From contig DASTSM010000349.1 in assembly GCA_035760685.1 (NCBI GenBank), positions 1 through 61,655 on the forward strand: a stretch of 61,655 bases of DNA, written 5' to 3'. The position numbers and the translations under genes were made by a program. The number at the start of each line of letters is the position of its first letter. Position 1 is the first letter of the stretch. The DNA comes from Gammaproteobacteria bacterium (GTDB lineage: Bacteria; Pseudomonadota; Gammaproteobacteria; Steroidobacterales; Rariloculaceae). Shown here piece by piece: positions 38,207 to 52,096 of this stretch. The notes beneath the pieces are model-generated. The model did not search any database and had not been told where the DNA came from. It was given only the letters and a program-made list of their open reading frames with translations.

Positions 38207-41200
38207 GCGATCGCCTGCAGAGTCCGGCTTTGCAGCGTCTCGAGCAGCGGCACGTGCGCCGCACGCAGCACTCGGCACAGCTCCGGCGCGCGTGTGCGCC
38301 CGTCCGCGAGACACTGCCTCTCGAGCTCTTTGACTTGGTCGGCGTACGCGAGCGCACCCACGTTCGCCGCGGCCGAAGCGAGCTTGTGGCACACGGCGGC
38401 GGCCGCGGCGAGATCGCCTCGCCCGAGGGCGGCTTCGAGGTCGGCGAGCGATTGCGTGGAGCTCGAGCGGAACAGCTCGACGAGCTTCGCGTAGAGCGCG
38501 GCGTGCCTGCCCGGGTGCAGTTGGCGCAGCGCCGCGACGGCGTCGGCATCGACGCACGCGAGCCGCCGGGCATCGGCGGCGTCCTCGGCCGCGGCGCCGC
38601 TCGCGGGCGCGAGCCAGCGCCGCAAGAGACGCGTGCAGTCATCGAGCGTGTACGGCTTGCTCAAGATGCCGTCGATGTCGGCCGCGAGGCACTTCTCTCG
38701 GTAGTGCTCGGCATCGTGCGCCGTCAGCGCGACGATCGGTGTGCGCGCTTCGCCGTTCTCGCCGGCGCGCTCCTGATGTTGGCGTATGAGCGCGGTCGTC
38801 GCGAATCCGTCCATTCCAGGCATGCTGAGATCCATCAATATGAGATCGAAGCGTTCGGCCGCGCTGCGCGCGACGGCCTCCGCGCCGCTTTCGACCCAGA
38901 CGCACGTGCATCCGAGCGCATCGAGATAGCCTTGCGCGACCGCGGCATTGACGGGCTCGTCCTCGACGAGGAGCACATGCCCCGCGAGAGGCGCATCGTC
39001 GACGGCCCGATCATCGGCAGCGGGGCTCGCGCGCACGCCGATCGCAGCGGCCAGCGCGTCCCGCAACGCGGCCCGATGAACCGGCTTCAAAACGATTCGG
39101 CCGTCGGGCAACGCGGTGCGCAGCCGCCGTTCCTCCACATCGCCGGCGGTCGCGATTACGATGACGGGGGCGCGCGCGCCGCCGGGCGAGGCGAGCAGCG
39201 AGTCGACCGTGTCCGGATAGCTGTCGGCGTCGAGCACCACGACGTCGGCTCGCTGGGCCTCGGACTCGTGCGCGAGGATCTCGAGACCGAGCGACGATGC
39301 GTGCCGCGCGAGCGACTCCGCGAGCGACGGACGGCGCGACTGTATGTGGACGCGGCGGCCGGCGAGATCCGCGGGCCGGCTCGGCTCGAGCGCGTCCCCG
39401 ACCTCGAGCGGGAGCGAGACGCGGAAAGTGGAGCCGATCTGCGGCCGGCTCTCGACCGTGATGCCGCCGCCCATGAGATCGGCGAGCTCGCGGCAGATCG
39501 CGAGGCCGAGCCCCGTGCCTCCGAAGCGGCGCGTCGTGGCCTCGTCGGCCTGCGCGAAAGGCTCGAAGATCTTGGCCGTCGTCGCCGCGTCCATGCCGAT
39601 GCCGGTGTCGGCGACGGTCAGCCGCGCGGCGGCCCGGCCGCCGCCGTCCGTATCGATGTCCGCCTTGACGACGACTTCGCCTTGCTCCGTGAATTTGACT
39701 GCATTGCCGACCAGGTTCATCAAGATCTGGCGAATGCGAAGCGGGTCGCCGAGCAGGGCGCGCTCGGCCGGCGCCGGCGGGCACACGACGAGCTCGATGC
39801 CCTTCGCCTCGGCCGCACCCGCGAACAAGCTCGTGCATTCTTCGAGGATCCGGCCAAGATCGATCGGCAGCCGCTCGAGCGTCACCTTTCCCGCTCGCAC
39901 GCGCGACAGGTCGAGCAGGTCGTTGACGATTTGCAGCAGGATCTGCGCCGATGAGCGGATCGTTTTCGTGAGGTGCGTCTGCGTCGGCGAAAGCGCGGTG
40001 CGCGACAAGAGCTCGGTCATGCCGACCACGCCGTTCATCGGTGTGCGCAGCTCGTGACTCATGCGGTCGAGGAAGTCGCTCTTCGCCTGCGCCGCCTCGG
40101 CGAGCTGCCGGTTGCTCTCGACGAGCTCGCGCGTGCGCAGCTGCACCTCGGACTCGAGACGCTCGCGCGCTCGGGCCATCTCCTGGAATTTCTTCCGGTG
40201 CCGGCGAATTTGCTGCGCAATCAGGCCGAGCAGCGCGAGCGCATAGATCGCGTACGCCGCGGGCGACGCCCAGGGCGCGGGATCCCGGTGAATCGTCAAC
40301 CGCAAGGGCGTCGTGCTCCAGGCGGAGTCGGAGTTCGCGGCGCGCACCTCGAGCACGTGATCGCCGGGATCGAGATTCGTGAGCGTGATGCGGCGGTCGG
40401 CGCCGAGATCGATCCAATCGTCGGTCAGGCCGGCCATGCGATAGGCGAGTCGGTTGTACGCCGGCGACGTGAAATCGAGCACGCCGAAGTCGAGCGACAC
40501 GATGCTGCCGCGATAGTCGAGCTCGATGCGATCGCGCAGCCAGAAGGGCGTCTTGCCTTCCGCGCGCACGCCGAGCACCTCGACGTTCGTGAGCGCGACG
40601 CGCGGCGGCTCGCCGTTCTCCGACAGCGCCGCCGGGTCGAAGATGTTGAAGCCGCCCGGTCCCCCGAAGCACACGCGTCCGTCGCGCAGCCGAAAGTACG
40701 CGCCGAACGAGAACTCCTCGCCCTGCAAGCCGTCGGCGCGATGGTAGGTCTTGACGGCGCCCGTCGCGGGATCGAGCCGCATGAGGCCCGCGTTGCCGCT
40801 GAGCCAGATTCGGCCGAGATCATCCGGCACTACGCCGTACAGCGTGTCGCTCGAGAGACCGTCGGCGCGCGTGACGGCCTCGAACTCGATCGCATCGGGC
40901 GCCGCGGACGGATCGACGACGCGGGCGAGGCCGCCCCCGTCCGTGGCGATCCAAACGTTGCCGTCGCCGTCGACGGCGAGCGCATACACCGTGTTGGACG
41001 GGAGCGAAGACGGGTCGGCCGGATCGTTGCGGAAGACTTTCAGCACCGTGCCGTCCGCGCGCGCGAGATCGAGCCCCTCGCCCTCGGTGCCGAGCCAGAG
41101 ATTGCCGCGCGAGTCCTCCGCGATCGCGGTCACGTTCGGGGCGCTGACCGCACCCGGGGCAGAGCCGAAGGGAAGCTGGCGCACGGTGCGCGTCGCCGGG

Positions 41201-42729
41201 TCGAGCACGTTCGCGCCGCCGCCGAGCGTGCCGATCCAGATCGAGCCGCTGCGCGTCACGAGCATCGACAAGATGCCGGGTGCGCTCAGCGACTGCGGAT
41301 CGCCGGGCTGCACCGGAATCGACTCGACGCGGCCTTCCGGCGTGAGGACCTTGACGCCGCCGCCCATCGTGCCGATCCACAGCGCGCCGCGACGATCGAG
41401 CTGCAGCGACGTGAGCGGATCGTCGCCGACGGCATTCTTGCGCCCGACGAGCGTATCGACGGATGTCGCGACGCCGGTCGCGGCGTCGAAGCGAACGAGC
41501 CCGCTGAGCCATGCGATCCACAGGTCGCCGCCGGGCGCGTCCGCGAAGGCCGTGATGGGCTGGTTGTCGAGCCAGCTGGGACGATGCCCGCCGAGCTCCC
41601 AGCTGTGCGGGTTCCAGCGGCTCACGCCGCCCGTGCGGGTGCCGATCCAGACGAGGCCGGTCGGGTCCTGATAAAGCGACATCACGAACGAATCGCGGAG
41701 CGACGCGTTGTCGTTCGCGTCGCGGCGATAATTCGTGAACGTTCCCTTGGAACGATCGAGCAGCGAGAGGGCGTCGCCCGTGCCGACCCATAGCCGGCCC
41801 GCCCGGTCCTCGAGCAGCGCGCGCACGTCGTCGCTCGCGAGCGACGACGCATTGCCGGCGTCGTGTCGGAACGTTTCGAGCACCCGGCCGTCCCGGTCGG
41901 TGTGGATCAGGCCCGCATCGAACGTCGCGATCCAGAGCGTGCCGCTCCGATCCTCGATCACGCGCGCCACCTTCTTGTCTCGCAGCGAATGCGGATCGCC
42001 GGCGGGCGGGCCGACGCGAGTCAGCGTGCGCGTGTCGGACTGCCATCGGTCGAGCCCGCTGTCCGTGCCGATCAAGACGTTGCCGGCGCGATCGAGCGCG
42101 AGGGCGGAAACGCGGTCGTTGCCGAGCGAAGCGGGATCGCCCGGGTCGTGACGGATGTGCTCGATGCGCCCCGTCGACGGATCGAGCACGTCGACGCCCG
42201 CGTCGAACGTTCCGATCCAGACGAAGCCGCGCCGGTCGATGAGCACGGTGCGGACCCTGTCGCTCGCAAGCGAGCCTGAGTCGTTCGCGTCGTGTCGATA
42301 GCTCGTGAAGGCGTCGGTCCGGCGATCCCATTTCGCGAGCCCGGCGTCGTTGATCGCGATCCAGAGGTTGCTTTGCCGATCCTCGGCGATCTCCCAGATG
42401 TAGTTGCCGGGCAGAGAGCCGCTGTCCGTTCGAGAGCGCGCGTAGCGGTAGAGCTCGTGTCCGTCGTAGCGCACGAGCCCATCCTCGGTGCCGAGCCAGA
42501 CGAAGCCTTGCGAGTCCTGCAGCGTCGCCATGACCGTCGCCTGCGGGAGACCGTCCTCGGTCGTCAGGTGCTCGAGCACGAGCGGCGGCGCGTCGGCCGC
42601 GGCGGCCGACGCGCCGAGCATCGAGAGGCAGGCGTTGACGAGATGCGAGCGCCATCGGACGCTCGATCGTTGGGTCGATTTCACGCGCGGAGTCTCGGCG
42701 AGCTTGGGCGGCGCGGCGTTGATGCGCAT
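38203..42729 (-). CDS. Hybrid sensor histidine kinase with a periplasmic two-component-regulator propeller / Y_Y_Y domain, REC and HPt
   Basis: 1508 aa from the internal ATG at 42729. WIGT/WIAT/LWLGT propeller motifs recur about every 45 aa. TM segment [17 protein letters not shown]. HisKA ([11 protein letters not shown]). HATPase_c ([26 protein letters not shown]). A receiver-like spacer precedes the REC ([27 protein letters not shown]). HPt ([14 protein letters not shown]). Confidence 0.9.
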
Positions 42730-42788
42730 CCCGAATCCGGCAAGCGCCGGGAGGCCGCGCCGCCGAAGCGTCGGCGGCGCGGCGGACG

Positions 42789-44708
42789 TCACTCGTTGGG
42801 CACCCAGCTCGCGATCGAGGCGGGCTTCGTGCTGGAGGTTCGCGGCGGCGACGTGTACCACCAGGGCTCGCTTCGGCTCCACGTGTAGCCGCGGCTCCAC
42901 GTATAGCCGCGCGACCACGTATAGCCCCGGCTCCAGGTGTAGCCGCGGCTCCACGTGTAGCCTCGGCTCCAGGTGTAGCCCTGGCTCCAGGAGTAGCCTT
43001 CGCCCCGCGGATAGCCGCGCGACCACGTGTAGCCGTCGGCATCGGCGGACCCGCCCCAACGCCAGCCGTCCATGTCCATGATGTAGTAGTCGCCGTTCGC
43101 GTCCTGGTTCGCGGGGCCGCCGAAGTGCGCGATGCCGGCGATGTCCTCGTCGATGTCGAGCCCGCGGTTCGCGCACCCGGACGCGCCGCTGTTCGCCGCA
43201 TCGAGCGCGTTCAGGAGACCGGCTCCCTGCTGGAACACGCTGTACGCGAGCGTGCCGTCCGCCTTCACGGCGGGCCGCCCGGACGCGAGCAGCCGGCACT
43301 TCACCTCGTCCGGCGTCAGCCACGGGGCTTGTTGCAGCAGCAGCGCGACGACGCCCGAGGTCACGGCCGCCGCCTGCGAAGTGCCCGACATCACGAAGAG
43401 CTGCTCCGCGATGTTCATCGAGCCCGGATCGATGTTGGCGAGATAGCTGCTGCTCGACATCGAAGCCGCGATGTGGCCGCCCGGCGCGACGATCTCGGGC
43501 TTCACGAAGCCTTCGAAAGTCGGACCGGCCGAGGAGAACGACGCGAGACGGTCGTCGCCGCCGTCATAGGGCGTGTAGTCGTCCGTCAGCGCGCCGACCG
43601 TGATGACGTACGGCACGTTGCCCGGCACGTCGATGGTCATCGGGCTCGGACCGTCGTTGCCCGCGGCGACCACGACGACGATACCCGCGCGCCATGCGGC
43701 CATGACGGCCTGGTTCAGCGGATCGTCCCAGTAGAACGATTGCGGCTCCGCGCCGAACGAAAGGTTCAGCACGCGGATCCGGTACTGCGCGCGGTGCGCG
43801 ACGATCCAGTCGAGACCCGCGATGACGTCGACGTAGCGTCCCGCGCCCTCGCCGTTGAACGCGCGCACGATGACGAGATTCGCGCCGGGAGCGATGCCCT
43901 GATAGTCGCCCGAAAGCGCCTGCGCGCCGCTCGCCGCGATGGACGTCACGTGCGTGCCGTGACCGTACGGATCGCTCCTGACGGGGCCCGAGCCGCCGTT
44001 CGTCACGTCGACGGAGGCGAGGATGCGATTGCCGTAGAACTGAGTCGTGTCCTGCCAGAGCCCCGTGTCGAGCACGGCGATCGTGACGCCGCGGCCCGTG
44101 ATCCCGGCGCGCTGGAGCGAGTCGGCGCCGATGAGCCCCGGATAGTTCGTCTCGTAGAGCAGCGGCAGGCCGAGCAGGACGCCGGTGCCGTCCTCGAGCG
44201 TCGGAATGGAGCTCAGCGTGTCGACGAGCGGCGACGTGAGCGTGCTGACGAGAGGATCGGTCGTGACCGTCGAAACGACCGGAGTCGCGATCGACTGCAC
44301 GTCCTCGACGAGAGGACTCGTCGCGAGCGTCGAGTTCAGCGAGTTCACGAGGTTCTGCAGACTGCCGAGCAGCGAGCCGCGTGTTTTGACCGCGCGATCC
44401 TCGTAGACCCGAAGGCTCGAATCCGAGCGCAGACGGGCAAGCTGCGGCGGCGTGAGCCGAGCGGAGACGGCGTGAATGATGCGGAGCTCCGCCTCGGGCT
44501 CGGCGCCGACGGCGCGGACGCGGGTGCGCGCCGCGTCGAGCGTCGCGCCCTGCACGATATACGATGCCGTCTCTTGCGGCTGCGCCGCCGCCGCAAACGC
44601 GCCGGCCGTCGCGGTCAGGAGCCCGATCAGCAACCGAGCCGCGAGCCCGATTCGGCAGCGAGGCCCGAGGGCAAGCGGCAAACGCGGCGCACGTATGAAG
44701 TTTTTCAT
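42789..44708 (-). CDS. Secreted S8 subtilisin-like serine protease with a C-terminal (GYTWSR)n hexapeptide repeat tail
   Basis: 639 aa from the internal ATG at 44708. It has a signal peptide and an I9-like propeptide (ASYIVQG...LRVYEDRAV). The catalytic triad sits in subtilase contexts: [35 protein letters not shown]. The tail is Trp/Tyr-rich. Confidence 0.88.
42873..43034 (-). repeat. Nine tandem 18-bp units encoding GY(T/S/P)(W/R)(S/G)(R/Q/E)
   Basis: Read on the minus strand the units are [18 protein letters not shown], then 6x GYTWSR. The units differ mainly at synonymous sites: TAC/TAT, ACG/ACC, AGC/TCG, CGC/CGA/CGG. Confidence 0.9.
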
Positions 44709-44851
44709 TTTGTTTCCCCTGGCGAGCAGGACGTGCGCTATCTCAATACAACGGCCCCGGTACGGCACGGACGCGCCCGATGCGGCCTCCACGCATTGTG
44801 TGACGCGTGTCTCATAACGCGAGGTGTCAAATGCGGCGGTGCGGTGCGCCG

Positions 44852-46495
44852 TTACGCGGAGTGCCGGGCGGGCGCCGGCGCGGCCGCGTTCACGGCGACG
44901 TCGCCGTAGAGATCGCCGTTGCCCTGGGGGCACCCGAGCGCGAGCAGGGCGTCGCGCTGAGCCTCGTCATCGACGCCCGTGGCGATCGGCGTGAGCGAGA
45001 GCGCCGCCGCCATCGCGATCCCGGCGCGGCACACGTTGCGCGCGACCTCGTCGCCGCGCAGCGCGCCGACCCACGCGCGATCGAGCTGCAGGCCCCAAAC
45101 GGGACCGCGAGCGAGCGACGCGAGAGAGCCGACGTCGCGGCCGACTTCGTCCACGACGAAGCGCACGCCGAGCTGATGCAATGAGCGGAAGTCGGCCGGA
45201 TGGCGCGCGACGAAGACCTTCTCCGCGATGCGCAGCTCGAGCCGCTCGGGCGGCACGGCGCCGGACTCGAGGAACGCATGCATGTCGGAGACGAAGTCCT
45301 CGTGCAGCACGTGATCGCGCAGCGCGCCGAGCGAGATGCGCACGTCCGATTCCGAGCCCGCGCCGAGCGCGGCGAAGTCCTCCGGAAGTTGCGCGAGCAG
45401 GCTGCGCGAGAGGCTCGTCGCGAGGCCGGTCGTCTGCGCCACTCGCAGAAATTCCGCGGGACGGATCTCGCCGCGCAACGGATGAATCCAGCGGACGTAA
45501 CCGACCCACGCGACTCGGCGTCCGGTCCGAAGGTCGTGCCGGCCCGCATAGCGCAGGCGAATCGCGCCGCTCGCGATCGCTTCGCGCAGCTCCCTCGCGA
45601 TGTCGATGCGCGCGAGCGATTTCAGCTGCATCGTGTCGCTGAAGAAGAAGACGTCGCTCGACGCCGCACGGCGCGCCTCGGCCGCGGCGGCGCGCGCATG
45701 GTCGAGCAGGGTGCGCGGGCTCGTCGCGTCGACGCCTAGGATTCCGGCGCCGGCGTAGGGCGTGAGGTGGAACTCCGCGTCTCCGATGACGACGGCCTCG
45801 CGGAGGCTCGCGCAGACGCTCCCGACGCACGCTTCGATGACGTCGCGGTCCCCGCTTTCGACGACGAGGGCGAGCAGGTTCTCGCTGAGCTGACCCAGGC
45901 ACCAGCCGGACGCGCCGTCGTCGTTCGCGTTCGCGTTCGCGTTCGCGGGCGCGGGCGCCGGCAGCCGACCGAGCGCGGTCGTCATGATTTGCTCCGATAT
46001 TCGCGTCGAGATGATCTGCGCGATGTCGGCGATTTCCTCTATATAGATGACGGCGACCGCGATCGGCCGCTCGCGCAGCGCGGCAATCGACACCGCTTCC
46101 TTGAAGCGGCGCAGAAAGCCGCGGCGATCGAGCTGCATCCGGCGGTGCTCGCCGGTCGCATCGCCGACGTCGCCGTGCGCGCCGGTCAACGCCGGACGGA
46201 TCGCGAGGATCGCGCGCGACGGACCTTGAGGATTCGCGCGGACGTCGTATTGCTTGCCGCTCTCCCGGAAGCGAGCCTCGACCGGAGCGCGGTCGGCGAT
46301 CGTCTTGCGCGCGAGCTGCCGGATGAGGGCGGCCGTCGACTCGGACCACGCGGGGGCGAAGCGCCCGCGGCGCGACGGATCGCGGCCGGCCAGCTCGGGC
46401 ACGGCTCGGCCGCCCGCGTGCGCGATGAGCGTCCCGTCGCGCTTCACGAGCAGCACGAGATCGGGCAGCGCGTCGATGAGCTCCGGCGTCGACAT
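44852..46495 (-). CDS. Degenerate GGDEF-EAL protein with an N-terminal PAS-like region (FimX-like candidate c-di-GMP receptor)
   Basis: 547 aa from the internal ATG at 46495. The domain order resembles PAS-GGDEF-EAL. The GG(D/E)EF position reads QLSENLL. The EAL position reads [17 protein letters not shown] is replaced by VDEVGRDVGS. There are no TM segments. Confidence 0.7.
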   Translation of the reverse strand: MSTPELIDALPDLVLLVKRDGTLIAHAGGRAVPELAGRDPSRRGRFAPAWSESTAALIRQLARKTIADRAPVEARFRESGKQYDVRANPQGPSRAILAIRPALTGAHGDVGDATGEHRRMQLDRRGFLRRFKEAVSIAALRERPIAVAVIYIEEIADIAQIISTRISEQIMTTALGRLPAPAPANANANANDDGASGWCLGQLSENLLALVVESGDRDVIEACVGSVCASLREAVVIGDAEFHLTPYAGAGILGVDATSPRTLLDHARAAAAEARRAASSDVFFFSDTMQLKSLARIDIARELREAIASGAIRLRYAGRHDLRTGRRVAWVGYVRWIHPLRGEIRPAEFLRVAQTTGLATSLSRSLLAQLPEDFAALGAGSESDVRISLGALRDHVLHEDFVSDMHAFLESGAVPPERLELRIAEKVFVARHPADFRSLHQLGVRFVVDEVGRDVGSLASLARGPVWGLQLDRAWVGALRGDEVARNVCRAGIAMAAALSLTPIATGVDDEAQRDALLALGCPQGNGDLYGDVAVNAAAPAPARHSA

Positions 46496-46732
46496 GAGCC
46501 GAATATAGGAGGAGCGGAGCCGGGAAAACGTAGACGCAAGTCGGCTCTTTTCAAACGGATCGCCGCCCGCGGCGTTGCGCCTTGCGCGGCAAGGTGTCGG
46601 CGAGCATGATGGCCGCATCCGGCCCATGCCGACTGCGCGTCGCGGGAACGACGGAGCCCGCGCGGCGAAGAGGCGCGCAGTGCGCGCGTTGGGCACGCAG
46701 GGAACGGCGCGATGAATGAACGGGCCTGACCG

Positions 46733-48895
46733 GTGGTGGAGGGCGAACGCCTGACCCCGGATCTGGAAGCCGCCTTGGAGCTGCTCGCCGCGCGCGTCCA
46801 CGAGGCATGGGTCGAGCACCGGCGCCGGCGCGGTTGGCAGTTCGGCTCGGTGCGCGATGACGACGCCCGCCTTTCGCCTTCGCTCGTGCCGTACGAGCAG
46901 CTTTCCGAGTCGGAACGCGAGCTCGACCGAGTGACCGTTCGTTCCGCGCTAGAAGCACTGGAGTCTCTAGGTTATCGATTGGCGCTCGACGCTCCGGCAT
47001 CGAGCACCGTCTCTCGCGAGCATCTGCTCGCTCAGGCGGATCGGATGATTTCGCAGGGGCAGCCGCTGCCGGCGTACGACATCACGCGCCGTTTCCTAGA
47101 GGCCCACCCGAACGACGCCGCCTTTCGTCTCTGCAACGCTCGCGCGCTCCGGCGCGCAGGCGCATTGCAAAGCGCCCTGCGCATGCTCGACGATCTCGGC
47201 GCGAGTCCCGACGAGGACGGAGAGCGGCGAGGCCTCCTCGCGGCCATTCACAAGGAAATGTTCACTCGGGATCGCGGGCGGCCGCACGTCCACGCGGCGG
47301 ATCATCTGCGTCGCGCGCAACAGCTCTACAAGGACGTCTTCGAGGAATCGGCCGGCACGAAATTCTGGCACGGCATCAATGCCGCGACGCTCGCGCTGCT
47401 GCTCGGCAAGAAGTCGGAAGCCGGCACGCTCGCCCGACGCGTCCGCACGGCTTTGGGGCAGAATTCGATCGGCGACGATTACTGGCGGCAGGCGACTCTC
47501 GCGGAAGCGGCGCTGGTCGAGGGTCGTTTCGACCAGGCCGCCCTCGAGTATCGCAAGGCGGCCGCGCTGGCCCGAGATCGGGGCGGCGACGTCGCTTCAA
47601 CCCGTCAGAACGCCATGTTGCTGCTGCAAGCGCACGCCGCCGATGACCGCGACGCTGCGGCGATCGAGGCGGCGCTGCGGGCCCCGGGGGTCGTCCTGTT
47701 CGCCGGGCTCTCCGCGGATCCGGAGCAGGCTCTCGAACGCCGCTTCCCGCGCGCGGTCGAGAACGACGTGAGGATCGTTTTGCGCGAGCGCCTCGCCGCC
47801 GTGGACGCCGCTTTCGGCTTCGGCGGCGCCGCGCCAGGCGCCGAGACGCTGTTTCTCGAGCTCATGCTGGAACGCGACGGCGGCATCGCAACGGCGGTGC
47901 TGCCGTGGCCTCGCGATCAGTTTGCAGCCACGCATGTGCTCACGGCCGGGGCATCGTGGTTGCGTCGGTTCGAGTCGCTGCTCGGCAGCGCGACGCGTCC
48001 CGCGCGCGTGCACCACGTGGTCAACGCATCGCTCGGCGTCGGCGTCGACGGCGTTCTGTACGAGCGCTTTGCGCAGCAACTGCTCGTGGGACTCGCAAGG
48101 CTGCAAGCCGCAACGCTCGGCACCGACGTCGTGCCCGTCGTCGTGTGGGACAGCGCCGTGGGCGCGGGCGCCGACCTCGGCGCGCGCATCGAGCGCTTCC
48201 ACGCGCTCGGGCTGGACGTGAGGGATGCCAACGTCATCGACGTGAGGCCGATGCTCGAAGCCCGCGGACGACGAGCGTCGATCGACCGCCGGCCGACGCC
48301 GTCGGCGCCAGCGCCGGCGCAGAGCGCTTTCAGCGTCATGGCCATCCTGTTCGCGGACGTGGAGGACTACTCGCGCATTCCCGAGAGCCGTCTGCCGGCC
48401 TTCATCGAGTATTTCGTCGGCGGCCTCGCCAATCATTTGGCGCTAAAGCCTTACAAGGCGCGCAACGTGCGCCGGATCGGCGATGGTTTGCTGATGGTGT
48501 TTGCGAGCGTGCGCGACGCCGGCCTATGCGCTCTCGATCTCGTGGAGTGGGTCGGCATGCATTCCGAGCCCGGCGCGGACGGAGAAACGTTTTGGTCGCG
48601 GCTCGGTCTGCCGCGCGAGCTGCGCGTGCGGGTCGCACTGCACGCCGGCCCGGTCTTCGAGTGCGTCGATCCCCTGACGCAAGTCGTGAGCTTCGAGGGA
48701 GCGCATATCAACTACGCCGCGCGGATCGAGCCCGTGACGCCGGGCAATCAGGTCTATGCGAGCGAAGCCTTCGCGGCCCTTGCCGCGAGCTCACCCGCCG
48801 AAGGCGCCGAGTTCGTCTGCGAATACGTCGGGCTCATGTCGCTCGCGAAGAGGCTCGGCGAATATCCCCTCTATCATCTGCGCCGGCGCGGGTGA
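46733..48895 (+). CDS. Multidomain signalling protein: RyR domain + ASK1-type TPR (DUF4071-like) + Rossmann-like (SLOG/LOG-like?) module + class III adenylate/guanylate cyclase
   Basis: 720 aa with a GTG start. RyR domain: AARVHEAWVEHRRRRGWQFG..RDDDARLSPSLVPYEQLSESERELDR. TPR region with FWHGINAATLALLLG. G-rich loop FGFGGAAPGAETLFLE. Cyclase: ILFADVEDYSR, RRIGDGLLMVF, GAHINYAARIE. Confidence 0.8.
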   Translation: MVEGERLTPDLEAALELLAARVHEAWVEHRRRRGWQFGSVRDDDARLSPSLVPYEQLSESERELDRVTVRSALEALESLGYRLALDAPASSTVSREHLLAQADRMISQGQPLPAYDITRRFLEAHPNDAAFRLCNARALRRAGALQSALRMLDDLGASPDEDGERRGLLAAIHKEMFTRDRGRPHVHAADHLRRAQQLYKDVFEESAGTKFWHGINAATLALLLGKKSEAGTLARRVRTALGQNSIGDDYWRQATLAEAALVEGRFDQAALEYRKAAALARDRGGDVASTRQNAMLLLQAHAADDRDAAAIEAALRAPGVVLFAGLSADPEQALERRFPRAVENDVRIVLRERLAAVDAAFGFGGAAPGAETLFLELMLERDGGIATAVLPWPRDQFAATHVLTAGASWLRRFESLLGSATRPARVHHVVNASLGVGVDGVLYERFAQQLLVGLARLQAATLGTDVVPVVVWDSAVGAGADLGARIERFHALGLDVRDANVIDVRPMLEARGRRASIDRRPTPSAPAPAQSAFSVMAILFADVEDYSRIPESRLPAFIEYFVGGLANHLALKPYKARNVRRIGDGLLMVFASVRDAGLCALDLVEWVGMHSEPGADGETFWSRLGLPRELRVRVALHAGPVFECVDPLTQVVSFEGAHINYAARIEPVTPGNQVYASEAFAALAASSPAEGAEFVCEYVGLMSLAKRLGEYPLYHLRRRG

Positions 48896-48946
48896 GGGGC
48901 CCGGCTTATCAGACGCGCCGGCGCGGTGAGGCGCCGGCTTGTCAGA
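48880..48946. repeat. Tandem duplication (~34 + 32 bp) of the convergent stop/stop junction
   Basis: GCGCCGGCGCGGGTGAGGGGCCCGGCTTATCAGA (48880-48913) is followed by GCGCCGGCGCGGTGAGGCGCCGGCTTGTCAGA (48915-48946). Copy 1 supplies the cyclase TGA at 48893-48895. Copy 2 supplies the minus-strand TGA at 48942-48944. Confidence 0.6.
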
Positions 48947-49859
48947 GGGGCCGGCCGAATCCGCGCCTCAAGCGCGCGCATCCGAGGCGGCGGAAGGCGG
49001 CCAGCCCGAGCAACCCGCCGAGGAGCAGCAGGCCCGATGAAGGCTCCGGAACCGTGACCGGACCCGTCGCATTCGCGAACGTGAAGCTGTAGCGGCCTCC
49101 GTTAATCGGATCGAAGGTGCTTGGATTGATCCGGAAATACTCGGCGTCGGTCGTGAACGGGATGATGAACCCGGCAGGCAGTATGTCGGAGCCGACGCCG
49201 AAGACGTTTCCGATCGAGTTGAAGTTGTTGCAGACCAGGGCGCCGGAATTCGCCAGTGGACACAAATCCTCGTTGAACTCGTTGATGCTGACACCGCCGT
49301 AGTCGGCGAACGCCGTCAGCCCCAACGCGCTCAACAGATCGAAGGAAGTTCCGCCGTTCGTCGAATAGCCGATAAACGGATGGTCCTCGCCGGACAGCAG
49401 GCTCTCGTAGTTGAACTCCATGATCAGGCTCGAGTCGGCGAGCGCGAACAGCGCGAGCTGCAGACTGTCGGTCGGGATACCCGTCGGCTCCAATCCAGAG
49501 GCCCACGTTACGCGGAACCCGGCATCGATGCCGGTCGGAAAGTTTGCCGTCGGAGTCGAACGGCCGAAGGTGAACGTCGTGTCGCTCGTCGACAGCGCGG
49601 CAAACGGCGATAGAGTGGCGGTGCTTCCGCCGGAGCCGAACGTGAGAGTGCCGTCGGGGCTGATGGTCACCTCCGTGCCGGTCACGCCGAAGAGGTCGAG
49701 TGCGAAGCCGGTTTCTACGGTCTGCTCGGTCGCAAAGGGACCGAAGGTGTCCCAGTCGGTCCCGGTGTCGATGCGTATGACACGGCCGGCGTCGGCAGGC
49801 GGAGTGTGAAGAAGGAGGGCGACGAGTGCCGTGCAGAACATCGGGGGCAGCGTGCGCAT
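48942..49859 (-). CDS. PEP-CTERM sorting-domain secreted protein
   Basis: 305 aa. Signal peptide MRTLPPMFCTALVALLLHTPPADA. C-terminal VTVPEPSSGLLLLGGLLGLAAFRR, then a 14-aa basic extension. It lies downstream of, and co-directional with, the TIR-TPR gene. Confidence 0.8.
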   Translation of the reverse strand: MRTLPPMFCTALVALLLHTPPADAGRVIRIDTGTDWDTFGPFATEQTVETGFALDLFGVTGTEVTISPDGTLTFGSGGSTATLSPFAALSTSDTTFTFGRSTPTANFPTGIDAGFRVTWASGLEPTGIPTDSLQLALFALADSSLIMEFNYESLLSGEDHPFIGYSTNGGTSFDLLSALGLTAFADYGGVSINEFNEDLCPLANSGALVCNNFNSIGNVFGVGSDILPAGFIIPFTTDAEYFRINPSTFDPINGGRYSFTFANATGPVTVPEPSSGLLLLGGLLGLAAFRRLGCARLRRGFGRPL

Positions 49860-50005
49860 AACCCACCTCGTCGTTGGAAAACAAAATCAGCGTAAGGCAA
49901 GTACTATCGCGAAGCAAGGAACATCGTAGAAGCGATGCGGGCGGCAAAAAAGCGCTGTGGAATCCACCTACGCGCCCGGCAACGATGCAGTCGCAGGCCG
50001 AGAGG

Positions 50006-52096
50006 TCACGGTCCCTCCGGCCGGGCCGCATCGACGTCGGCGATGAGGCGGTACTGGCGGGCCAGCGCCGGGTTGCCGCGCGCGTCATAGAGCCCCGCAA
50101 CGCGCCCGGCGGCGAGACGCGTGAACAGGCCCTCCCGGCCCCACTTCGCCTCGACCACGGGATAGCTTTGCAGCAACAATGCTCCGGCCTGCTCTCGTTG
50201 GCCGGCGGCGAGACGAGCGGCGCCCTCGACGTTGGCGAGATACGCCTCGTGCCACGGCTCGTCGGGATACTCGTCCTCGAGCAGCGGCCTCGCGGCCTCG
50301 ACGGCGTGCAGTGCGTCGGTGACGCGTCCGAGGCGCCAGTAGACGTCCGCCAAGTTCGTCCAGATTTCCCCGCGCATCCTGTGCCGGTAGTGCTCGGCGA
50401 TCCGCAGCGCTTCCTCGAGCAGCGGCTCCGCGTCCTTCACTTGCCCCGCGGCGAGCCGCGCGAGGCTCAGGTTGTTGAGCGTATAGACGAAGTCGTCGTG
50501 ACCGGGGTCTTTGAGCTTTCGATCGACGTCGAGCGCCTCGCTGAGCAACGGGGCCGCTTCGGCGACCTTGCCTTGCTCGAGCAGCACGCGCCCGAGGTTG
50601 TTGAGCGCACTGGAGACGTTCGGGTGCTCGTTGCCGAAGATGTGACGATACCGATCGACGGCCTCGCGCAACACGGGCTCCGTCGCCTCGCGCTGTCCCG
50701 AGAAGTAAAGCAAGGCACCGAGATTGGCCAGCGTCTCCGCGACGAGGGGATGGTCGTTGCCCAGCGTCTGGCGGCGGATCGCCAAGGCTTCGCGATAGGC
50801 GGCTTCGCTTTCGGCGTACCGTTGCTCATAGAGCAGCGCGCTCGCCAGACCGGCCAGGCTGCGTGCGACGTCGGGATGCATGTTGCCGTGCAGGCGGCGA
50901 TCGATTGCGAGCGCGGCCGCGTACTCGGTCTCGGCTGCGGCGAACTCGCCGCGCTGACTCAGCAGATCGGCGACACCGTTCACGGCCTCGCTGACCTGCG
51001 GATCGCCGCCGGGATGCAGCTTCTCGGCGCCGGACAGCGCGTCCCGGTAGACCTTCTCCGCCTCCTCGTATTCTCCTTTGAGGTACAAGGCCGCGCCGAG
51101 GGCGTTGGCGGTATCGACGCTGTCCGGCGTCGGCCCGCCCTGCATCTGTCGGCGCAGAGCCCATGCGCGCTGCAGCAGATCGCTCGCGGGCTGGTAGAGA
51201 CCGAGCCCGGTGTAGACGCGGCCCATCGTGTACATCAGGTTGGCGCGCACCACCGGTTGTTGCTGGAGCTCCCGATCGATGCGCACGGCACCGCGATCGA
51301 GCACCTCGCGTGCCGTGATGCTGTTGCCCCTTGCCTCGCCGGGATCTGCAACCTGAAACAGTTGCACGAGAAACTCGCTCGTCTGTTGCGCCGTGGCCGC
51401 CTCGACTTCCGCGCGCGCCCTCTGCCGCTCGGCTTCGTTGCGGGAAATCAGCGCTAGTGCCGCGAGCAAGGACGCCGCGGCCATGCCGGCGACCGAGGCG
51501 GCCGCGATCGCCGTCAGATGCCGTTGCCGGCGCTGCGCATCGCGCCGCGCGAGCTCATCGAGGCCGACGCCGAGCAGCCCGGCGACGATTTTCAGCAACG
51601 CAGCGGTGCGACCGTCCTTGCCCGGCCGCAGATCGGCGGCGATCGGCTCGCTCACGCTCGCGGCGCTGTCGCCGCCGGCCCCGAGCGGCTCGAGCAGGCC
51701 CGGCGGGAAACAATCGGCGTCACCGAGCCCGTTCGGCTCGCCGGCGACGATGACGCAGAAGATCCTTTCCTGCCTGCCGAGCCGTCTGAAGGCGCGGATT
51801 TCCTCGCCGACCCAACGGGACTGCGCCGCGGCGGGCGAGCAGATTACGATCAGTGCCGAGGATTGCTCGAGCGCGGCACTGACCGCGCGGCCGAGGTCCG
51901 TCGCGGTCGGCAGCTCCTCGCGATCGCGGAAGACGGGGGAGATTCTGGCGGGCACCGCGCCGACCGTGGTCCTGCGCCCGACGAGGCGCCGCGGTACCCG
52001 GTAGCGTTCGAGCGCCCCGTGTAGCCAACGGGCCGTGCGTTCATCGTGATGGCTGTAGCTGATGAACGCACGATAACGGAACTCCGGCGTGCTCAT
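50006..52096 (-). CDS. TIR domain - transmembrane helix - TPR repeat protein
   Basis: 696 aa. TIR: YRAFISYSHHDERTARWLHGALE, PVFRDREEL, ALIVICSPAAAQSRWVGEEI (conserved Glu context). Linker motif AADLRPGKDGR..LLKIVAGLLGV. TM segment LTAIAAASVAGMAAASLLAALALI. About 10 TPR_12-like repeats follow (YEEAE..YR.AL.I....G..HP.VA..L.NL). Confidence 0.85.
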   Translation of the reverse strand: MSTPEFRYRAFISYSHHDERTARWLHGALERYRVPRRLVGRRTTVGAVPARISPVFRDREELPTATDLGRAVSAALEQSSALIVICSPAAAQSRWVGEEIRAFRRLGRQERIFCVIVAGEPNGLGDADCFPPGLLEPLGAGGDSAASVSEPIAADLRPGKDGRTAALLKIVAGLLGVGLDELARRDAQRRQRHLTAIAAASVAGMAAASLLAALALISRNEAERQRARAEVEAATAQQTSEFLVQLFQVADPGEARGNSITAREVLDRGAVRIDRELQQQPVVRANLMYTMGRVYTGLGLYQPASDLLQRAWALRRQMQGGPTPDSVDTANALGAALYLKGEYEEAEKVYRDALSGAEKLHPGGDPQVSEAVNGVADLLSQRGEFAAAETEYAAALAIDRRLHGNMHPDVARSLAGLASALLYEQRYAESEAAYREALAIRRQTLGNDHPLVAETLANLGALLYFSGQREATEPVLREAVDRYRHIFGNEHPNVSSALNNLGRVLLEQGKVAEAAPLLSEALDVDRKLKDPGHDDFVYTLNNLSLARLAAGQVKDAEPLLEEALRIAEHYRHRMRGEIWTNLADVYWRLGRVTDALHAVEAARPLLEDEYPDEPWHEAYLANVEGAARLAAGQREQAGALLLQSYPVVEAKWGREGLFTRLAAGRVAGLYDARGNPALARQYRLIADVDAARPEGP

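What the first reader, a model, noticed from the sequence alone, without database searches (positions are those of the whole stretch)
46733..52096. TIR protein, Rossmannoid (SLOG-like?) sensor and class III cyclase in one neighbourhood: candidate undescribed nucleotide-messenger module
Three adjacent genes make up this neighbourhood.
- On the plus strand, a 720-aa protein combines a RyR domain, an ASK1-type TPR region, a Rossmann-like module and a class III cyclase whose catalytic residues look intact.
- On the minus strand is a PEP-CTERM protein.
- Also on the minus strand is a TIR-TM-TPR protein.

Established systems use these parts. In Thoeris, a TIR protein makes a cADPR isomer that is sensed by the SLOG domain of the effector. 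In Pycsar, a class III-like cyclase makes a cyclic nucleotide that activates TIR or TM effectors.

Here the parts co-occur in an arrangement that matches neither system. The cyclase is fused to large sensor-like domains. The TIR protein has no cNMP-binding domain but carries a TM helix and TPR repeats. The RyR domain is suggestive, because eukaryotic RyR channels respond to cADPR, but that link is speculative.

One caveat is that the cyclase gene converges on the other two genes, so it is not in the same operon. Functional linkage is inference only.
Basis: partly seen in the sequence, partly recalled or inferred. Interest (0 to 1): 0.75.

Follow-up and report, generated by a model that had tools for sequence, protein, structure and literature searches.

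The report
TIR-linked sensor cyclase gene trio
A membrane-anchored TIR enzyme gene sits next to a gene for a nucleotide cyclase carrying three domains from families tied to NAD-derived (ADP-ribose-type) signals, and this pairing recurs across many bacterial phyla, so it is probably a relay that converts a TIR-made signal into a cyclic-nucleotide signal.

Summary

- **Gene A** (46733-48895, +) encodes RyR, TPR-S (ASK1-type TPR), a SLOG-fold Rossmannoid domain and a class III cyclase.
- **Gene B** (48942-49859, -) encodes a PEP-CTERM protein.
- **Gene C** (50006-52096, -) encodes TIR, one TM helix and TPR repeats.

The linkage is not chance. Among 84 relatives of A from more than 8 phyla, TIR ORFs are about 70 times denser within 500 bp of the cyclase gene than at 3-10 kb. 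A TIR gene lies within 1.5 kb in 42 of 68 loci, and the catalytic Glu is invariant (59/59). In the window's own clade, five of eight loci keep the whole trio, including the PEP-CTERM gene, despite gene inversions.

The link is asymmetric. None of the 80 closest TIR-TM-TPR loci has the cyclase. They mostly pair with a SLOG-multi-TM protein whose SLOG domain is homologous to A's.

Most likely this is a Thoeris-like system: TIR makes an NAD-derived signal, A senses it, and the cyclase emits a cNMP. The direction of signalling, the ligand, the product and the biological role (defence or envelope signalling) are inferred. I rate it a new variant of a known kind.

The parts
46733..48895 (+). Gene A: 720-aa RyR / TPR-S / SLOG / class III cyclase protein (the proposed signal receiver and cNMP generator)
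   Evidence: ORF. It is identical to an NCBI MAG protein named 'RyR domain-containing protein'. AF2 model: pLDDT 87.3, pTM 0.81. The family has 3,088 50%-identity cluster representatives at E<=1e-30.
46748..46981 (+). RyR (R12-type) domain, residues 6-83
   Evidence: Pfam PF02026 1.3e-17; PDB RyR2 2e-31. H23, W26 and D65 are conserved in all RyR-bearing relatives. Position 48 is S/T in the window clade and H in the other clade. The spacing equals RyDEP H75/W78/H100/D117.
47015..47674 (+). TPR-S / ASK1-type helical repeat region, residues ~95-314 (Pfam core 115-221)
   Evidence: PF20308 9.4e-14; PF13281 weak. The model is all-helical. Invariant polar residues across 32 relatives: K174, Y199, N216, T219, R291.
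47684..48277 (+). SLOG-superfamily Rossmannoid domain, residues ~318-515
   Evidence: Model pLDDT 92.9. Foldseek matches: YpsA E 6.7e-6, DprA, LOG, TRPM N-termini. hhalign to the N-terminal domain of the SLOG-TM partner family of TIR-TM-TPR proteins: 97.9%, E 4e-13. The GHMxD, ACGAD and GGT motifs are lost in the window clade.
48329..48886 (+). Class III nucleotidyl cyclase catalytic domain, residues ~533-718
   Evidence: Foldseek Rv1900c/CyaC/sGC, E 4e-7, TMt up to 0.80. D542, D584, R664 and K706 are invariant; N660 is present. The specificity positions are R580/S653, neither the ATP nor the GTP type.
48942..49859 (-). Gene B: 305-aa secreted PEP-CTERM protein; conserved third gene of the trio in the window's clade
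   Evidence: PEP-CTERM motif. Homologues sit between the cyclase and TIR genes in L001, L169, L172/L173 and the P0008 contig. Global identity to the L001 protein is 29%, with the same architecture. tblastn of the L172 homologue against window 49823-49314: 36% over 196 aa, E 4e-10.
50006..52096 (-). Gene C: 696-aa TIR / TM / TPR protein (the proposed NAD-consuming signal generator)
   Evidence: ORF; Pfam TIR_2 9e-14, ThsB_TIR 1e-8, TPR_12 2.5e-55.
51527..52075 (-). TIR domain plus conserved C-terminal extension, residues 8-190; catalytic Glu E99 (SRWVGEEI)
   Evidence: 51-73% identical to TIRs next to cyclase homologues in Acidobacteriota and Methylomirabilota. The Glu is invariant in 59/59; its position is given.
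51443..51520 (-). Single transmembrane helix, residues 193-218
   Evidence: Hydrophobic scan. In 77/77 family members there is more K+R before the helix than after it (6.1 vs 3.5), which predicts the TIR inside and the TPR outside.
50027..51403 (-). TPR_12/TPR_10 array, residues ~232-690; predicted extracytoplasmic
   Evidence: Pfam TPR families and NCBIfam FxSxx_TPR, residues 232-523. The location is an inference from topology.

Best explanation
This is a Thoeris-like two-step messenger relay with a clade-specific third gene.

Proposed sequence of events:
1. Protein C sits in the inner membrane, with its TIR domain in the cytoplasm and its TPR array outside.
2. When triggered, the TIR domains consume NAD+ and release an ADP-ribose-derived small molecule (a cADPR-type isomer or a relative).
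3. The N-terminal sensor block of protein A receives this molecule. The universal candidate sensor is TPR-S. The RyR domain and the SLOG domain may act as extra binding sites or as signal-trimming sites.
4. Binding changes the activity of the dimeric C-terminal class III cyclase, which makes a cyclic mononucleotide of unknown identity.
5. The cNMP acts on targets encoded elsewhere.

The PEP-CTERM protein B, secreted to the envelope, is kept between the two genes in this clade. It may be what the outside TPR array monitors.

What is shown: the domain identities, the conservation of catalytic residues, and the conserved gene linkage.

What is inferred: the direction of signalling, the ligand, the cyclase product, the topology, and the biological role (phage defence versus envelope or environment signalling).
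For: **Linkage**
- TIR ORFs are about 70-fold enriched directly beside the cyclase gene. 42 of 68 loci have one within 1.5 kb. In 38 of 48 TIR-positive loci no gene intervenes.
- 28 neighbouring TIR ORFs are on the same strand and 22 on the opposite strand.
- The loci span Acidobacteriota, Cyanobacteria, Verrucomicrobiota, Desulfobacterota, Methylomirabilota, Chloroflexota, Poribacteria and Proteobacteria.
- Three different TIR families are recruited. That fits a requirement for a TIR activity rather than shared ancestry of one locus.
- In the window's clade the trio recurs in 5 of 8 loci, with B in different orientations.

**TIR as an enzyme**
- The catalytic Glu is invariant, 59/59.

**A as the receiver**
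- TPR-S is present. A TPR-bearing effector (which I take, from memory, to be TPR-S) belongs to type VIII Thoeris, which responds to cADPR. That TPR was predicted earlier to take part in TIR signalling.
- The SLOG fold is the fold of the 3'cADPR sensor domain of ThsA (as cited).
- The same SLOG subfamily heads the commonest partner of TIR-TM-TPR proteins.
- The RyR family binds or cleaves 2'/3'cADPR, and A keeps H23, W26 and D65.

**Cyclase competence**
- Fold match; D542, D584, N660, R664 and K706 present.

**C is not a cNMP-controlled effector**
- C has no cNMP-binding domain.
Against: - No biochemistry is available for any component.
- The link is asymmetric. None of the 80 closest TIR-TM-TPR loci from metagenomes carries the cyclase (0/24 with adequate flanks). 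C's family therefore usually works with other partners.
- About 38% of cyclase homologues have no TIR gene nearby and no alternative conserved neighbour.
- In the window the genes converge and are separated by B.
- The SLOG motifs (GHMxD, ACGAD, GGT) and the RyR phosphate-binding His are lost in the window's clade. Two of the three candidate sensor domains may therefore be impaired here.
- The window protein's Pfam cyclase score is below the gathering cut-off.
- The substrate-specifying residues are non-canonical.
- No cNMP receptor is linked: cNMP_binding appears in only 2 of 94 neighbours.
- PADLOC has no match for A or B, and the window is ordinary chromosome rather than a defence island.
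Confidence: 0.55

Rival explanations
1. Reverse order, as in Pycsar/Pucsar. Protein A senses the trigger through its N-terminal domains and makes a cNMP. The cNMP then activates the TIR protein as an NAD+-depleting or membrane-acting effector.
For: Cyclase plus TIR or TM effector pairs are established defence systems. One relative locus (L169) carries a PycTM-like 2TM protein 3 kb from the cyclase (PADLOC 2.4e-14). The cyclase specificity residues are non-canonical, as in pyrimidine cyclases.
Against: Pycsar and Pucsar TIR effectors carry a cNMP-binding domain. None of the neighbouring TIR proteins scanned has one. Instead they carry large repeat or sensor-like domains (TPR, Sel1, WD40). A carries three domains of families tied to ADPR-derived ligands. 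PADLOC PycC models do not match A. The same TIR family otherwise pairs with SLOG-headed proteins, which is the Thoeris logic.
Confidence: 0.12
2. Protein A mainly removes or buffers the TIR signal. The RyR domain would act as a glycosidase or sponge, and the SLOG domain as an N-glycosidase. The cyclase would be a secondary read-out or inactive. A would thus be a feedback or immunity-threshold regulator for TIR systems whose real effector is elsewhere, for example the SLOG-TM protein.
For: RyDEP-type RyR domains cleave or sequester cADPR isomers. The other clade keeps the full H/W/H/D set, including the catalytic dyad. L169, L172 and L173 have both a SLOG-TM protein and the cyclase near one TIR gene. 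LOG-family relatives are hydrolases (fold matches).
Against: About 40% of TIR-linked family members lack RyR altogether. The cyclase metal, Arg and Lys residues are invariant across 32 diverse members, which argues that the cyclase is the selected output. Most TIR-cyclase loci have no SLOG-TM gene.
Confidence: 0.12
3. Protein-protein signalling without a small molecule. TIR acts as an adaptor or scaffold that contacts the TPR-S region of A, as animal TIR adaptors do. Gene linkage would then reflect complex formation.
For: TPR arrays often bind proteins. A preprint reports that a BcTir-BcTpr complex is required for defence.
Against: An invariant catalytic Glu in 59/59 TIRs from three families is hard to explain for a pure scaffold. 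Interchangeable TIR families argue against a specific co-evolved interface.
Confidence: 0.08
4. No functional link in this particular window. C and B would belong to an independent envelope or TIR-TM-TPR system, and A would be an ordinary regulated cyclase that happens to lie nearby.
For: The genes are convergent and are not one operon. C's closest relatives never have the cyclase. Some close relatives of A lack any TIR gene (L003 and L170/171).
Against: The same trio recurs in five clade-1 loci with rearranged orientations and different flanking genes. The family-wide enrichment is about 70-fold.
Confidence: 0.08

Closest known systems
Type VIII Thoeris (TIR ThsB + ThsI 'CMP hydrolase and TPR'; signal canonical cADPR); the TIR-TPR-S systems predicted by Burroughs & Aravind 2020
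   Same: A TIR gene lies next to a protein carrying a TPR scaffold. In A this is TPR-S (PF20308 in A); that ThsI's TPR is the same ASK1-type scaffold is from memory, not tested here. The known system is triggered by a TIR-made NAD derivative.
   Different: A has no DRHyd/CMP-hydrolase domain. Its Rossmannoid domain is YpsA-like SLOG and lies C-terminal to TPR-S. The output is a class III cyclase rather than a nucleotide hydrolase. There is an extra RyR domain. The TIR partner is membrane-anchored with large repeat domains. No cyclase effector was found in that study's tables (one file is truncated).
Type I Thoeris (ThsB TIR + ThsA SIR2-SLOG), and the listed but unvalidated 'SLOG and 4TM' configuration
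   Same: A TIR generator is paired with a protein whose SLOG domain receives the cADPR isomer. A's SLOG domain is homologous to that of the SLOG-multi-TM proteins that are the commonest partners of C's TIR family.
   Different: The output is a signalling enzyme, not an NADase or a membrane effector. The SLOG motifs are degenerate in the window's clade.
Pycsar / Pucsar (cyclase + cNMP-binding TIR or TM effector)
   Same: A nucleotidyl cyclase and a TIR protein are encoded together. The base-recognition residues are non-canonical.
   Different: The TIR protein has no cNMP-binding domain. The cyclase is fused to about 520 residues of sensor domains. PADLOC Pycsar models do not match A. The likely signal direction is reversed.
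Phage RyDEP and the RyR Repeat12 (R12) domain family (PF02026)
   Same: A's N-terminus is a single R12-type repeat with the H..W...D ligand residues at RyDEP spacing. RyDEP and class III cyclases both work as homodimers.
   Different: Here the domain is host-encoded, fused to a cyclase, and next to the TIR gene itself. The phosphate-binding His is Ser in the window. Ligand binding is untested.
Animal SARM1/TIR-1 -> ASK1/NSY-1 pathway, and cADPR modulation of ryanodine receptors
   Same: The parts list matches: a TIR NADase upstream, and an ASK1-type TPR scaffold and a RyR R12 domain downstream.
   Different: This is a resemblance in parts only. The bacterial output is a cyclase, not a kinase or a channel. 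No evidence here bears on the eukaryotic mechanisms.

Membership tests
Thoeris-type TIR signalling system | TIR-domain gene with catalytic Glu adjacent to the effector gene | tested here: met
   E99 in C. The Glu is invariant in 59/59 TIR ORFs beside cyclase homologues. Adjacency enrichment is about 70-fold.
Thoeris-type TIR signalling system | Partner protein carries a domain of a family known or predicted to receive ADPR-derived signals (SLOG, Macro, TPR-S ...) | tested here: met
   TPR-S above the Pfam cut-off; SLOG fold; RyR domain. This is homology only.
Thoeris-type TIR signalling system | TIR produces a signalling molecule on infection, and the system protects against phage | not testable with these tools
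   Needs LC-MS and plaque assays. PADLOC has no match for A or B. The window is not a defence island.
Thoeris-type TIR signalling system | Effector output arrests or kills the cell (NADase, protease, pore, nucleotide hydrolase) | tested here: not met
   The output domain is a class III cyclase, a messenger-making enzyme.
Type VIII Thoeris / DRHyd-TPR-S core | DRHyd (CMP-hydrolase-like) domain N-terminal to TPR-S | tested here: not met
   There is no such Pfam hit. The N-terminus is RyR. The Rossmannoid domain is C-terminal and matches YpsA/DprA/LOG best.
Type VIII Thoeris / DRHyd-TPR-S core | TPR-S domain | tested here: met
   PF20308, 52.3 bits against a cut-off of 27.6, covering profile positions 2-102 of 102. 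That ThsI's TPR belongs to PF20308 is from memory; it was not tested here.
Pycsar / Pucsar | Effector with a cNMP-binding domain fused to TIR or TM | tested here: not met
   No PF00027 in C or in 10 other TIR partners.
Pycsar / Pucsar | Cyclase belongs to the Pycsar-related clade | tested here: inconclusive
   No PADLOC PycC hit. No phylogeny was made.
Class III nucleotidyl cyclase | Cyclase homology domain fold | tested here: met
   Foldseek Rv1900c/CyaC/sGC, TMt 0.68-0.80, E ~1e-6.
Class III nucleotidyl cyclase | Two metal-binding Asp, plus transition-state Asn and Arg | tested here: met
   D542, D584, N660, R664. The Asn is Ser/Thr in the other clades.
Class III nucleotidyl cyclase | Canonical base-specifying pair (Lys/Asp for ATP or Glu/Cys for GTP) | tested here: not met
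   R580/S653 in the window clade; Asn/Thr elsewhere.
Class III nucleotidyl cyclase | Pfam PF00211 gathering score | tested here: not met
   17.9 bits against a cut-off of 21.9 for the window protein. Relatives at 36-38% identity carry precomputed PF00211 hits.
RyR R12 domain (PF02026) / RyDEP-like ligand binders | Pfam match and the four ligand residues (H75, W78, H100, D117 in RyDEP) | tested here: inconclusive
   Pfam 64.2 bits against a cut-off of 27.4. H23, W26 and D65 are present, but the H100 equivalent is S48 in the window (H in the other clade).
SLOG superfamily | Rossmannoid SLOG fold | tested here: met
   The top fold matches are YpsA, DprA, LOG and TRPM N-termini.
SLOG superfamily | Gly-rich nucleotide-binding motifs (LOG-type GGxGT and the first-loop motif) | tested here: not met
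   The window clade lacks the GHMxD His, ACGAD and GGT motifs, which are conserved in the other clades.
PEP-CTERM / exosortase substrates | C-terminal PEP motif, TM helix and basic tail, with an N-terminal signal peptide | tested here: met
   PF07589 at its cut-off, TIGR02595 above its cut-off. The VPEP...RR tail and the hydrophobic N-terminus are visible.

The most novel reading that the evidence does not exclude
The trio is not a phage-defence system. It is a Toll-like-receptor-style outside-in pathway in bacteria.

- An extracytoplasmic TPR (or Sel1 or WD40) ectodomain on a single-pass TIR protein monitors a secreted PEP-CTERM protein or another envelope cue.
- Ligand-driven clustering switches on the cytoplasmic TIR.
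- The NAD-derived product is read by a RyR/TPR-S/SLOG sensor that drives a cyclase.

One second messenger (ADPR-type) would thus be converted into another (cNMP) for physiological regulation. This would be a bacterial counterpart, and possible ancestor, of the TIR-to-ASK1 and cADPR-to-RyR connections in animals.
Probability: 0.22. Interest if true: 0.9.

Novelty: new variant of a known kind. Interest (0 to 1): 0.72.

Why it matters
If the relay works as proposed, it would be the first case in which a TIR-made NAD derivative controls synthesis of a cyclic mononucleotide. That would chain two messenger systems that have been studied separately (Thoeris and Pycsar/cAMP-type).

It would also supply a soluble, tractable bacterial protein containing RyR R12, ASK1-type TPR-S and SLOG domains side by side. 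Each of these is suspected, but mostly unproven, to bind cADPR-like ligands. It could therefore be used to test directly whether TPR-S and RyR R12 domains are receptors for ADPR-derived signals. That question bears on SARM1-ASK1 signalling and on the long-disputed effect of cADPR on ryanodine receptors.

The family is large: 3,088 50%-identity clusters at E<=1e-30. It is found mainly in soil and aquatic Acidobacteriota, Verrucomicrobiota, Cyanobacteria and Proteobacteria. The membrane-anchored TIR with an outside repeat domain, and the conserved secreted partner, add the possibility of envelope-to-cytoplasm TIR signalling.

Tried and rejected
- **PADLOC scans of A, B, C and partner proteins.** Only generic TPR/TIR hits for C and a PycTM-like hit for one neighbour in L169. 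There is therefore no filing under a catalogued defence system.
- **Exact-sequence contig look-up of A.** Nothing was found.
- **Alternative conserved partner in TIR-less loci.** None was found; no Pfam family occurs in more than 4 of 61 neighbours.
- **Universal third component in TIR-positive loci.** None was found. nSTAND1 occurs in 7 and cNMP_binding in 2 of 94 neighbours.
- **Reciprocal test from the TIR side.** It gave 0/80. This rejects an exclusive one-to-one pairing and led to the SLOG-TM partner instead.
- **Pairwise BLASTP of the window SLOG domain against the SLOG-TM protein.** Not significant. Only the profile-profile comparison showed homology.
- **phmmer of the TPR region against PDB.** It did not reach ASK1. 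The ASK1 link rests on the Pfam profiles only.
- **Promoter/terminator consensus scan.** Uninformative at 68% GC.
- **Burroughs & Aravind 2020 (PMC7685563), which defined the TPR scaffold.** The paper is not held. I could not check whether a TPR-S-cyclase architecture is already drawn there; what I say of it comes from citing papers and memory.
- **An early idea that the RyR domain determines TIR linkage.** Rejected: RyR+ 60% versus RyR- 63%.
- **An early idea that B is an unrelated insertion.** It was suggested by B's lower GC and the first tblastn. Searches rejected it.

Full report
**1. What is in the window**

- A: 46733..48895 (+), 720 aa
- B: 48942..49859 (-), 305 aa
- C: 50006..52096 (-), 696 aa

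A is identical to a protein of a 'MAG TPA: Gammaproteobacteria bacterium'. The rest of the 61.7-kb window is ordinary chromosome: IleRS, type IV pilus PilY1/PilW, a TonB receptor, AcrB, oxidoreductases, a hybrid sensor kinase, an S8 protease, an EAL protein, MerR and a MacB-type permease. It is not a defence island.

**2. Anatomy of A**

- *RyR domain, residues 6-83.* Pfam gives 1.3e-17. The same stretch matches the repeats of RyR1-3 in PDB at up to 2e-31.
- *TPR-S, residues 115-221.* PF20308 at 9.4e-14, with a weak MAP3K_TRAF_bd hit. The relatives at 36-38% identity carry precomputed PF13281 and PF00211 hits.
- *Whole-protein model.* An AlphaFold2 model built on 32 homologues is confident: pLDDT 87.3, pTM 0.81. 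Its best PDB matches are class III cyclase catalytic domains: Rv1900c, CyaC, Cya2 and sGC, with TMt up to 0.80 and E ~4e-7.
- *Middle domain, residues 314-521.* Modelled separately, it gives pLDDT 92.9. Its best matches are YpsA (E 6.7e-6), DprA, YgdH/LOG proteins and the N-terminal domain of TRPM channels. All are members of the SLOG superfamily.

Conservation across 32 homologues:
- Cyclase: D542, D584, R664, E666 and K706 are invariant. N660 is present in the window's clade and is Ser/Thr elsewhere. Aligned to a guanylyl cyclase, the base-specifying positions are R580 and S653. This is neither the Lys/Asp nor the Glu/Cys pair, so the product cannot be predicted.
- TPR-S: this region holds the densest set of invariant polar residues (K174, Y199, N216, T219, R291).
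- SLOG: the motifs conserved in the other clades (GHMxD, ACGAD, WDG..GGT) are degenerate in the window's clade.

**3. Anatomy of C and B**

C has three parts:
- an N-terminal TIR domain (TIR_2 9e-14, ThsB_TIR 1e-8);
- one hydrophobic helix at residues 193-218;
- a TPR_12/TPR_10 array.

The catalytic Glu is E99, in the motif SRWVGEEI. C has no cNMP-binding domain.

In 77 of 77 family members, the 15 residues before the helix carry more Lys+Arg than the 15 after it (6.1 vs 3.5). The positive-inside rule therefore places the TIR in the cytoplasm and the repeats outside. This is an inference.

B has an N-terminal hydrophobic signal and a PEP-CTERM tail.

**4. Is the neighbourhood more than chance?**

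A scan of one genome per GTDB species with the family alignment found more than 573 relatives, and the best 80 loci were kept. In six-frame ORFs of 84 non-redundant loci I searched for TIR domains with three iterated HMMs.

- TIR ORF density is 5.08 per 10 kb within 500 bp of the cyclase gene. It is 0.59 at 0.5-1.5 kb and about 0.07 at 3-10 kb (6 ORFs in 856 kb).
- Of 68 loci with at least 1.5 kb on both sides, 42 have a TIR gene within 1.5 kb.
- The fraction is the same with the RyR domain (24/40) and without it (17/27).
- In 38 of 48 TIR-positive loci nothing lies between the two genes.
- 28 TIR ORFs are on the same strand as the cyclase gene and 22 on the opposite strand.

Three TIR families are involved:

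| Type | Architecture | Evidence |
|---|---|---|
| i (window type) | TIR-TM-X, where X is TPR, WD40 (L032), or an unannotated ~430-aa domain sometimes followed by a second TM helix. It is 51-73% identical to C over TIR+TM, although the cyclases are only ~36% identical | |
| ii | TIR-TM-Sel1, about 460 aa, often convergent with the cyclase gene as in the window | |
| iii | A TM-less type of about 500 aa, often followed by an nSTAND1 NTPase | |

The catalytic Glu is invariant in all 59 of these TIR ORFs.

**5. The window's own clade**

Eight loci encode proteins about 57-61% identical to A.

- Five have the same trio (cyclase, a ~300-aa PEP-CTERM protein, and TIR-TM-TPR): the window, L001, L169, the P0008 contig, and L172/L173.
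- The middle gene is homologous in all of them. Its orientation differs between loci, and so does that of the TIR gene.
- The flanking genes also differ. They are polysaccharide and toxin-antitoxin genes in L001, and Metallophos/SLOG-TM genes in L169.
- One locus (L006) has a different TIR-TM gene directly upstream, apparently frameshifted.
- Two loci have no TIR gene (L003 and L170/171).

Retention of three genes through inversions and changes of context argues for selection on linkage. It also makes B a clade-specific member, not a bystander.

**6. The reciprocal test and what it revealed**

I seeded a metagenome scan with the TIR+TM part of C. It returned at least 579 relatives. None of the 80 best (52-64% identical) has the cyclase nearby, including 0 of the 24 with enough flank. 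They are TIR-TM-TPR proteins of about 740 aa, like C.

Their commonest neighbour, in 28 loci, is a protein of about 850 aa with no Pfam match. It is homologous to the 577-aa protein encoded next to the trio in L169, L172 and L173. Its N-terminal domain is homologous to the SLOG domain of the cyclase family (hhalign 97.9%, E 4e-13, 150 columns) and is followed by TM helices.

A 'SLOG and 4TM' partner of TIR genes is listed as a putative Thoeris configuration by Yirmiya et al. In their tests it gave no defence in E. coli.

C's family is therefore promiscuous, and A's family depends on a TIR neighbour. The element shared by the alternative partners is this SLOG subfamily. This is the pattern reported for Thoeris, where one TIR cluster pairs with different effectors.

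**7. Literature that bears on mechanism**

- Type VIII Thoeris consists of a TIR and ThsI ('CMP hydrolase and TPR'). It responds to canonical cADPR. [quoted passage not shown]
- A secondary source summarises the Burroughs & Aravind dataset as 78 operons. They have a core Tpr protein accompanied by TIR, YpsA, LSDAT, patatin or calcineurin genes. No cyclase is mentioned (bioRxiv 10.1101/2023.05.26.542521).
[quoted passage not shown] A has H23, W26, S48 and D65 at exactly that spacing. The clade at 36-38% identity has His at the third position.
- Pycsar and Pucsar TIR effectors carry a cNMP-binding domain (bioRxiv 10.64898/2026.08.12.744502).
- I found no description of a TPR-S-SLOG-cyclase protein or of its TIR linkage. 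The 2020 J Bacteriol paper could not be read.
- From memory, not from a tool: that paper's abstract speaks of a TPR scaffold predicted to recognise NAD+-derived signals and later incorporated into the animal ASK signalosome.

**8. Most likely mechanism**

The steps and their status:

| Step | Status |
|---|---|
| C is a catalytically competent TIR | Conserved Glu shown; activity inferred |
| C makes an ADPR-derived messenger | Inferred by analogy with Thoeris |
| A receives it through TPR-S, with RyR and SLOG as auxiliary binding or trimming sites | Domain identities shown; binding inferred. In the window's clade SLOG and RyR each lack a key motif, so TPR-S is the best candidate |
| The cyclase dimer changes its output of an unknown cNMP | Catalytic residues shown; regulation inferred |
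| The cNMP acts on unlinked targets | No linked receptor found |
| The outside TPR array of C senses something in the envelope, possibly B | Speculative; supported only by predicted topology and by conservation of B |

I put this at 0.55. The rivals are listed separately: the reverse order as in Pycsar; A as a signal-removing regulator; scaffold-type TIR signalling; and coincidence in this window.

Whether the system serves phage defence or physiological signalling is open.
- For defence: the patchy, multi-phylum distribution; the swapping of TIR types; the nSTAND1, toxin-antitoxin and 2TM neighbours in some loci.
- For physiology: the membrane-receptor architecture, the regulatory output, the ordinary chromosomal context, and the absence from PADLOC.

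**9. Verdict**

The thing is best filed as a new variant of the Thoeris-like TIR signalling kind. Its sensor parts are familiar (TPR-S, SLOG, RyR). Its output is new (a class III cyclase), its TIR partner is receptor-like, and in this clade there is a conserved secreted third protein.

It is widespread: 3,088 50%-identity clusters at E<=1e-30, and all of the best 150 are full-length.

Noticed in passing
window 42789-44933 (-), repeat at 42874-43040: The S8 subtilase (Peptidase_S8, 2.9e-47) ends in about 9 tandem copies of an 18-nt unit encoding GYTWSR hexapeptides (TRF period 18, 9.2 copies). The role of this C-terminal repeat is unknown.
   Followed up: partly
window 44852-46819 (-): An EAL-domain (c-di-GMP phosphodiesterase-type) gene diverges from the cyclase gene. 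Its longest ORF overlaps the start of gene A, so its real start is probably internal. It is not conserved next to cyclase homologues elsewhere.
   Followed up: partly
window 38203-43323 (-): A very long ORF reads as a hybrid sensor kinase with periplasmic beta-propeller-like repeats, HisKA/HATPase, receiver and Hpt-like regions. This was judged by eye from the translation and was not scanned.
   Followed up: no
L089-L168 (e.g. L128 3859-6396 and 6412-8634): TIR-TM-TPR proteins of about 740 aa are very common in metagenomes. In 28 of 80 loci they sit beside a protein of about 850 aa with no Pfam match. Its N-terminal domain is a SLOG domain homologous to that of the cyclase family, followed by TM helices. 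This looks like a widespread, uncharacterised Thoeris-like pair.
   Followed up: partly
L135 4036-9015, L138 9385-12696, L161 6022-10527: Twelve of the TIR-seeded loci instead have a 1100-1650-aa protein with Big_2 domains immediately downstream of the TIR-TM-TPR gene.
   Followed up: no
L169 1225-5975 (also L172, L173): Upstream of the RyR-less cyclase gene lie a PycTM-like 2TM protein (PADLOC 2.4e-14), a Metallophos phosphoesterase, the 577-aa SLOG-TM protein, and a 358-aa secreted protein of unknown family only 25 nt from the cyclase start. These are possible additional components or a cNMP-responsive effector.
   Followed up: partly
L086/L007 12345-18360: In an Acidobacteriaceae MAG the cyclase gene is followed by a convergent TIR-TM-Sel1 gene. 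After that come a second TIR protein (335 aa), a 138-aa ORF, an nSTAND1 NTPase and a TPR_10 protein. In other loci the nSTAND1 and TPR parts appear fused (900-1400 aa).
   Followed up: partly
L010 12565-22220 (Dapis sp. BLCC M126): Three tandem paralogous large proteins (687-1382 aa) lie downstream of the cyclase gene on the opposite strand. Each has an internal TIR domain at about residues 430-580.
   Followed up: no
L006 7941-9940: The TIR-TM gene upstream of the cyclase homologue appears split between two reading frames (499-aa and 173-aa ORFs overlapping at 9419-9440). This could be a frameshift, a sequencing error or a pseudogene.
   Followed up: no
window 48000-50000: G+C drops to about 0.655 over gene B and its surroundings, against about 0.70 on either side.
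   Followed up: no
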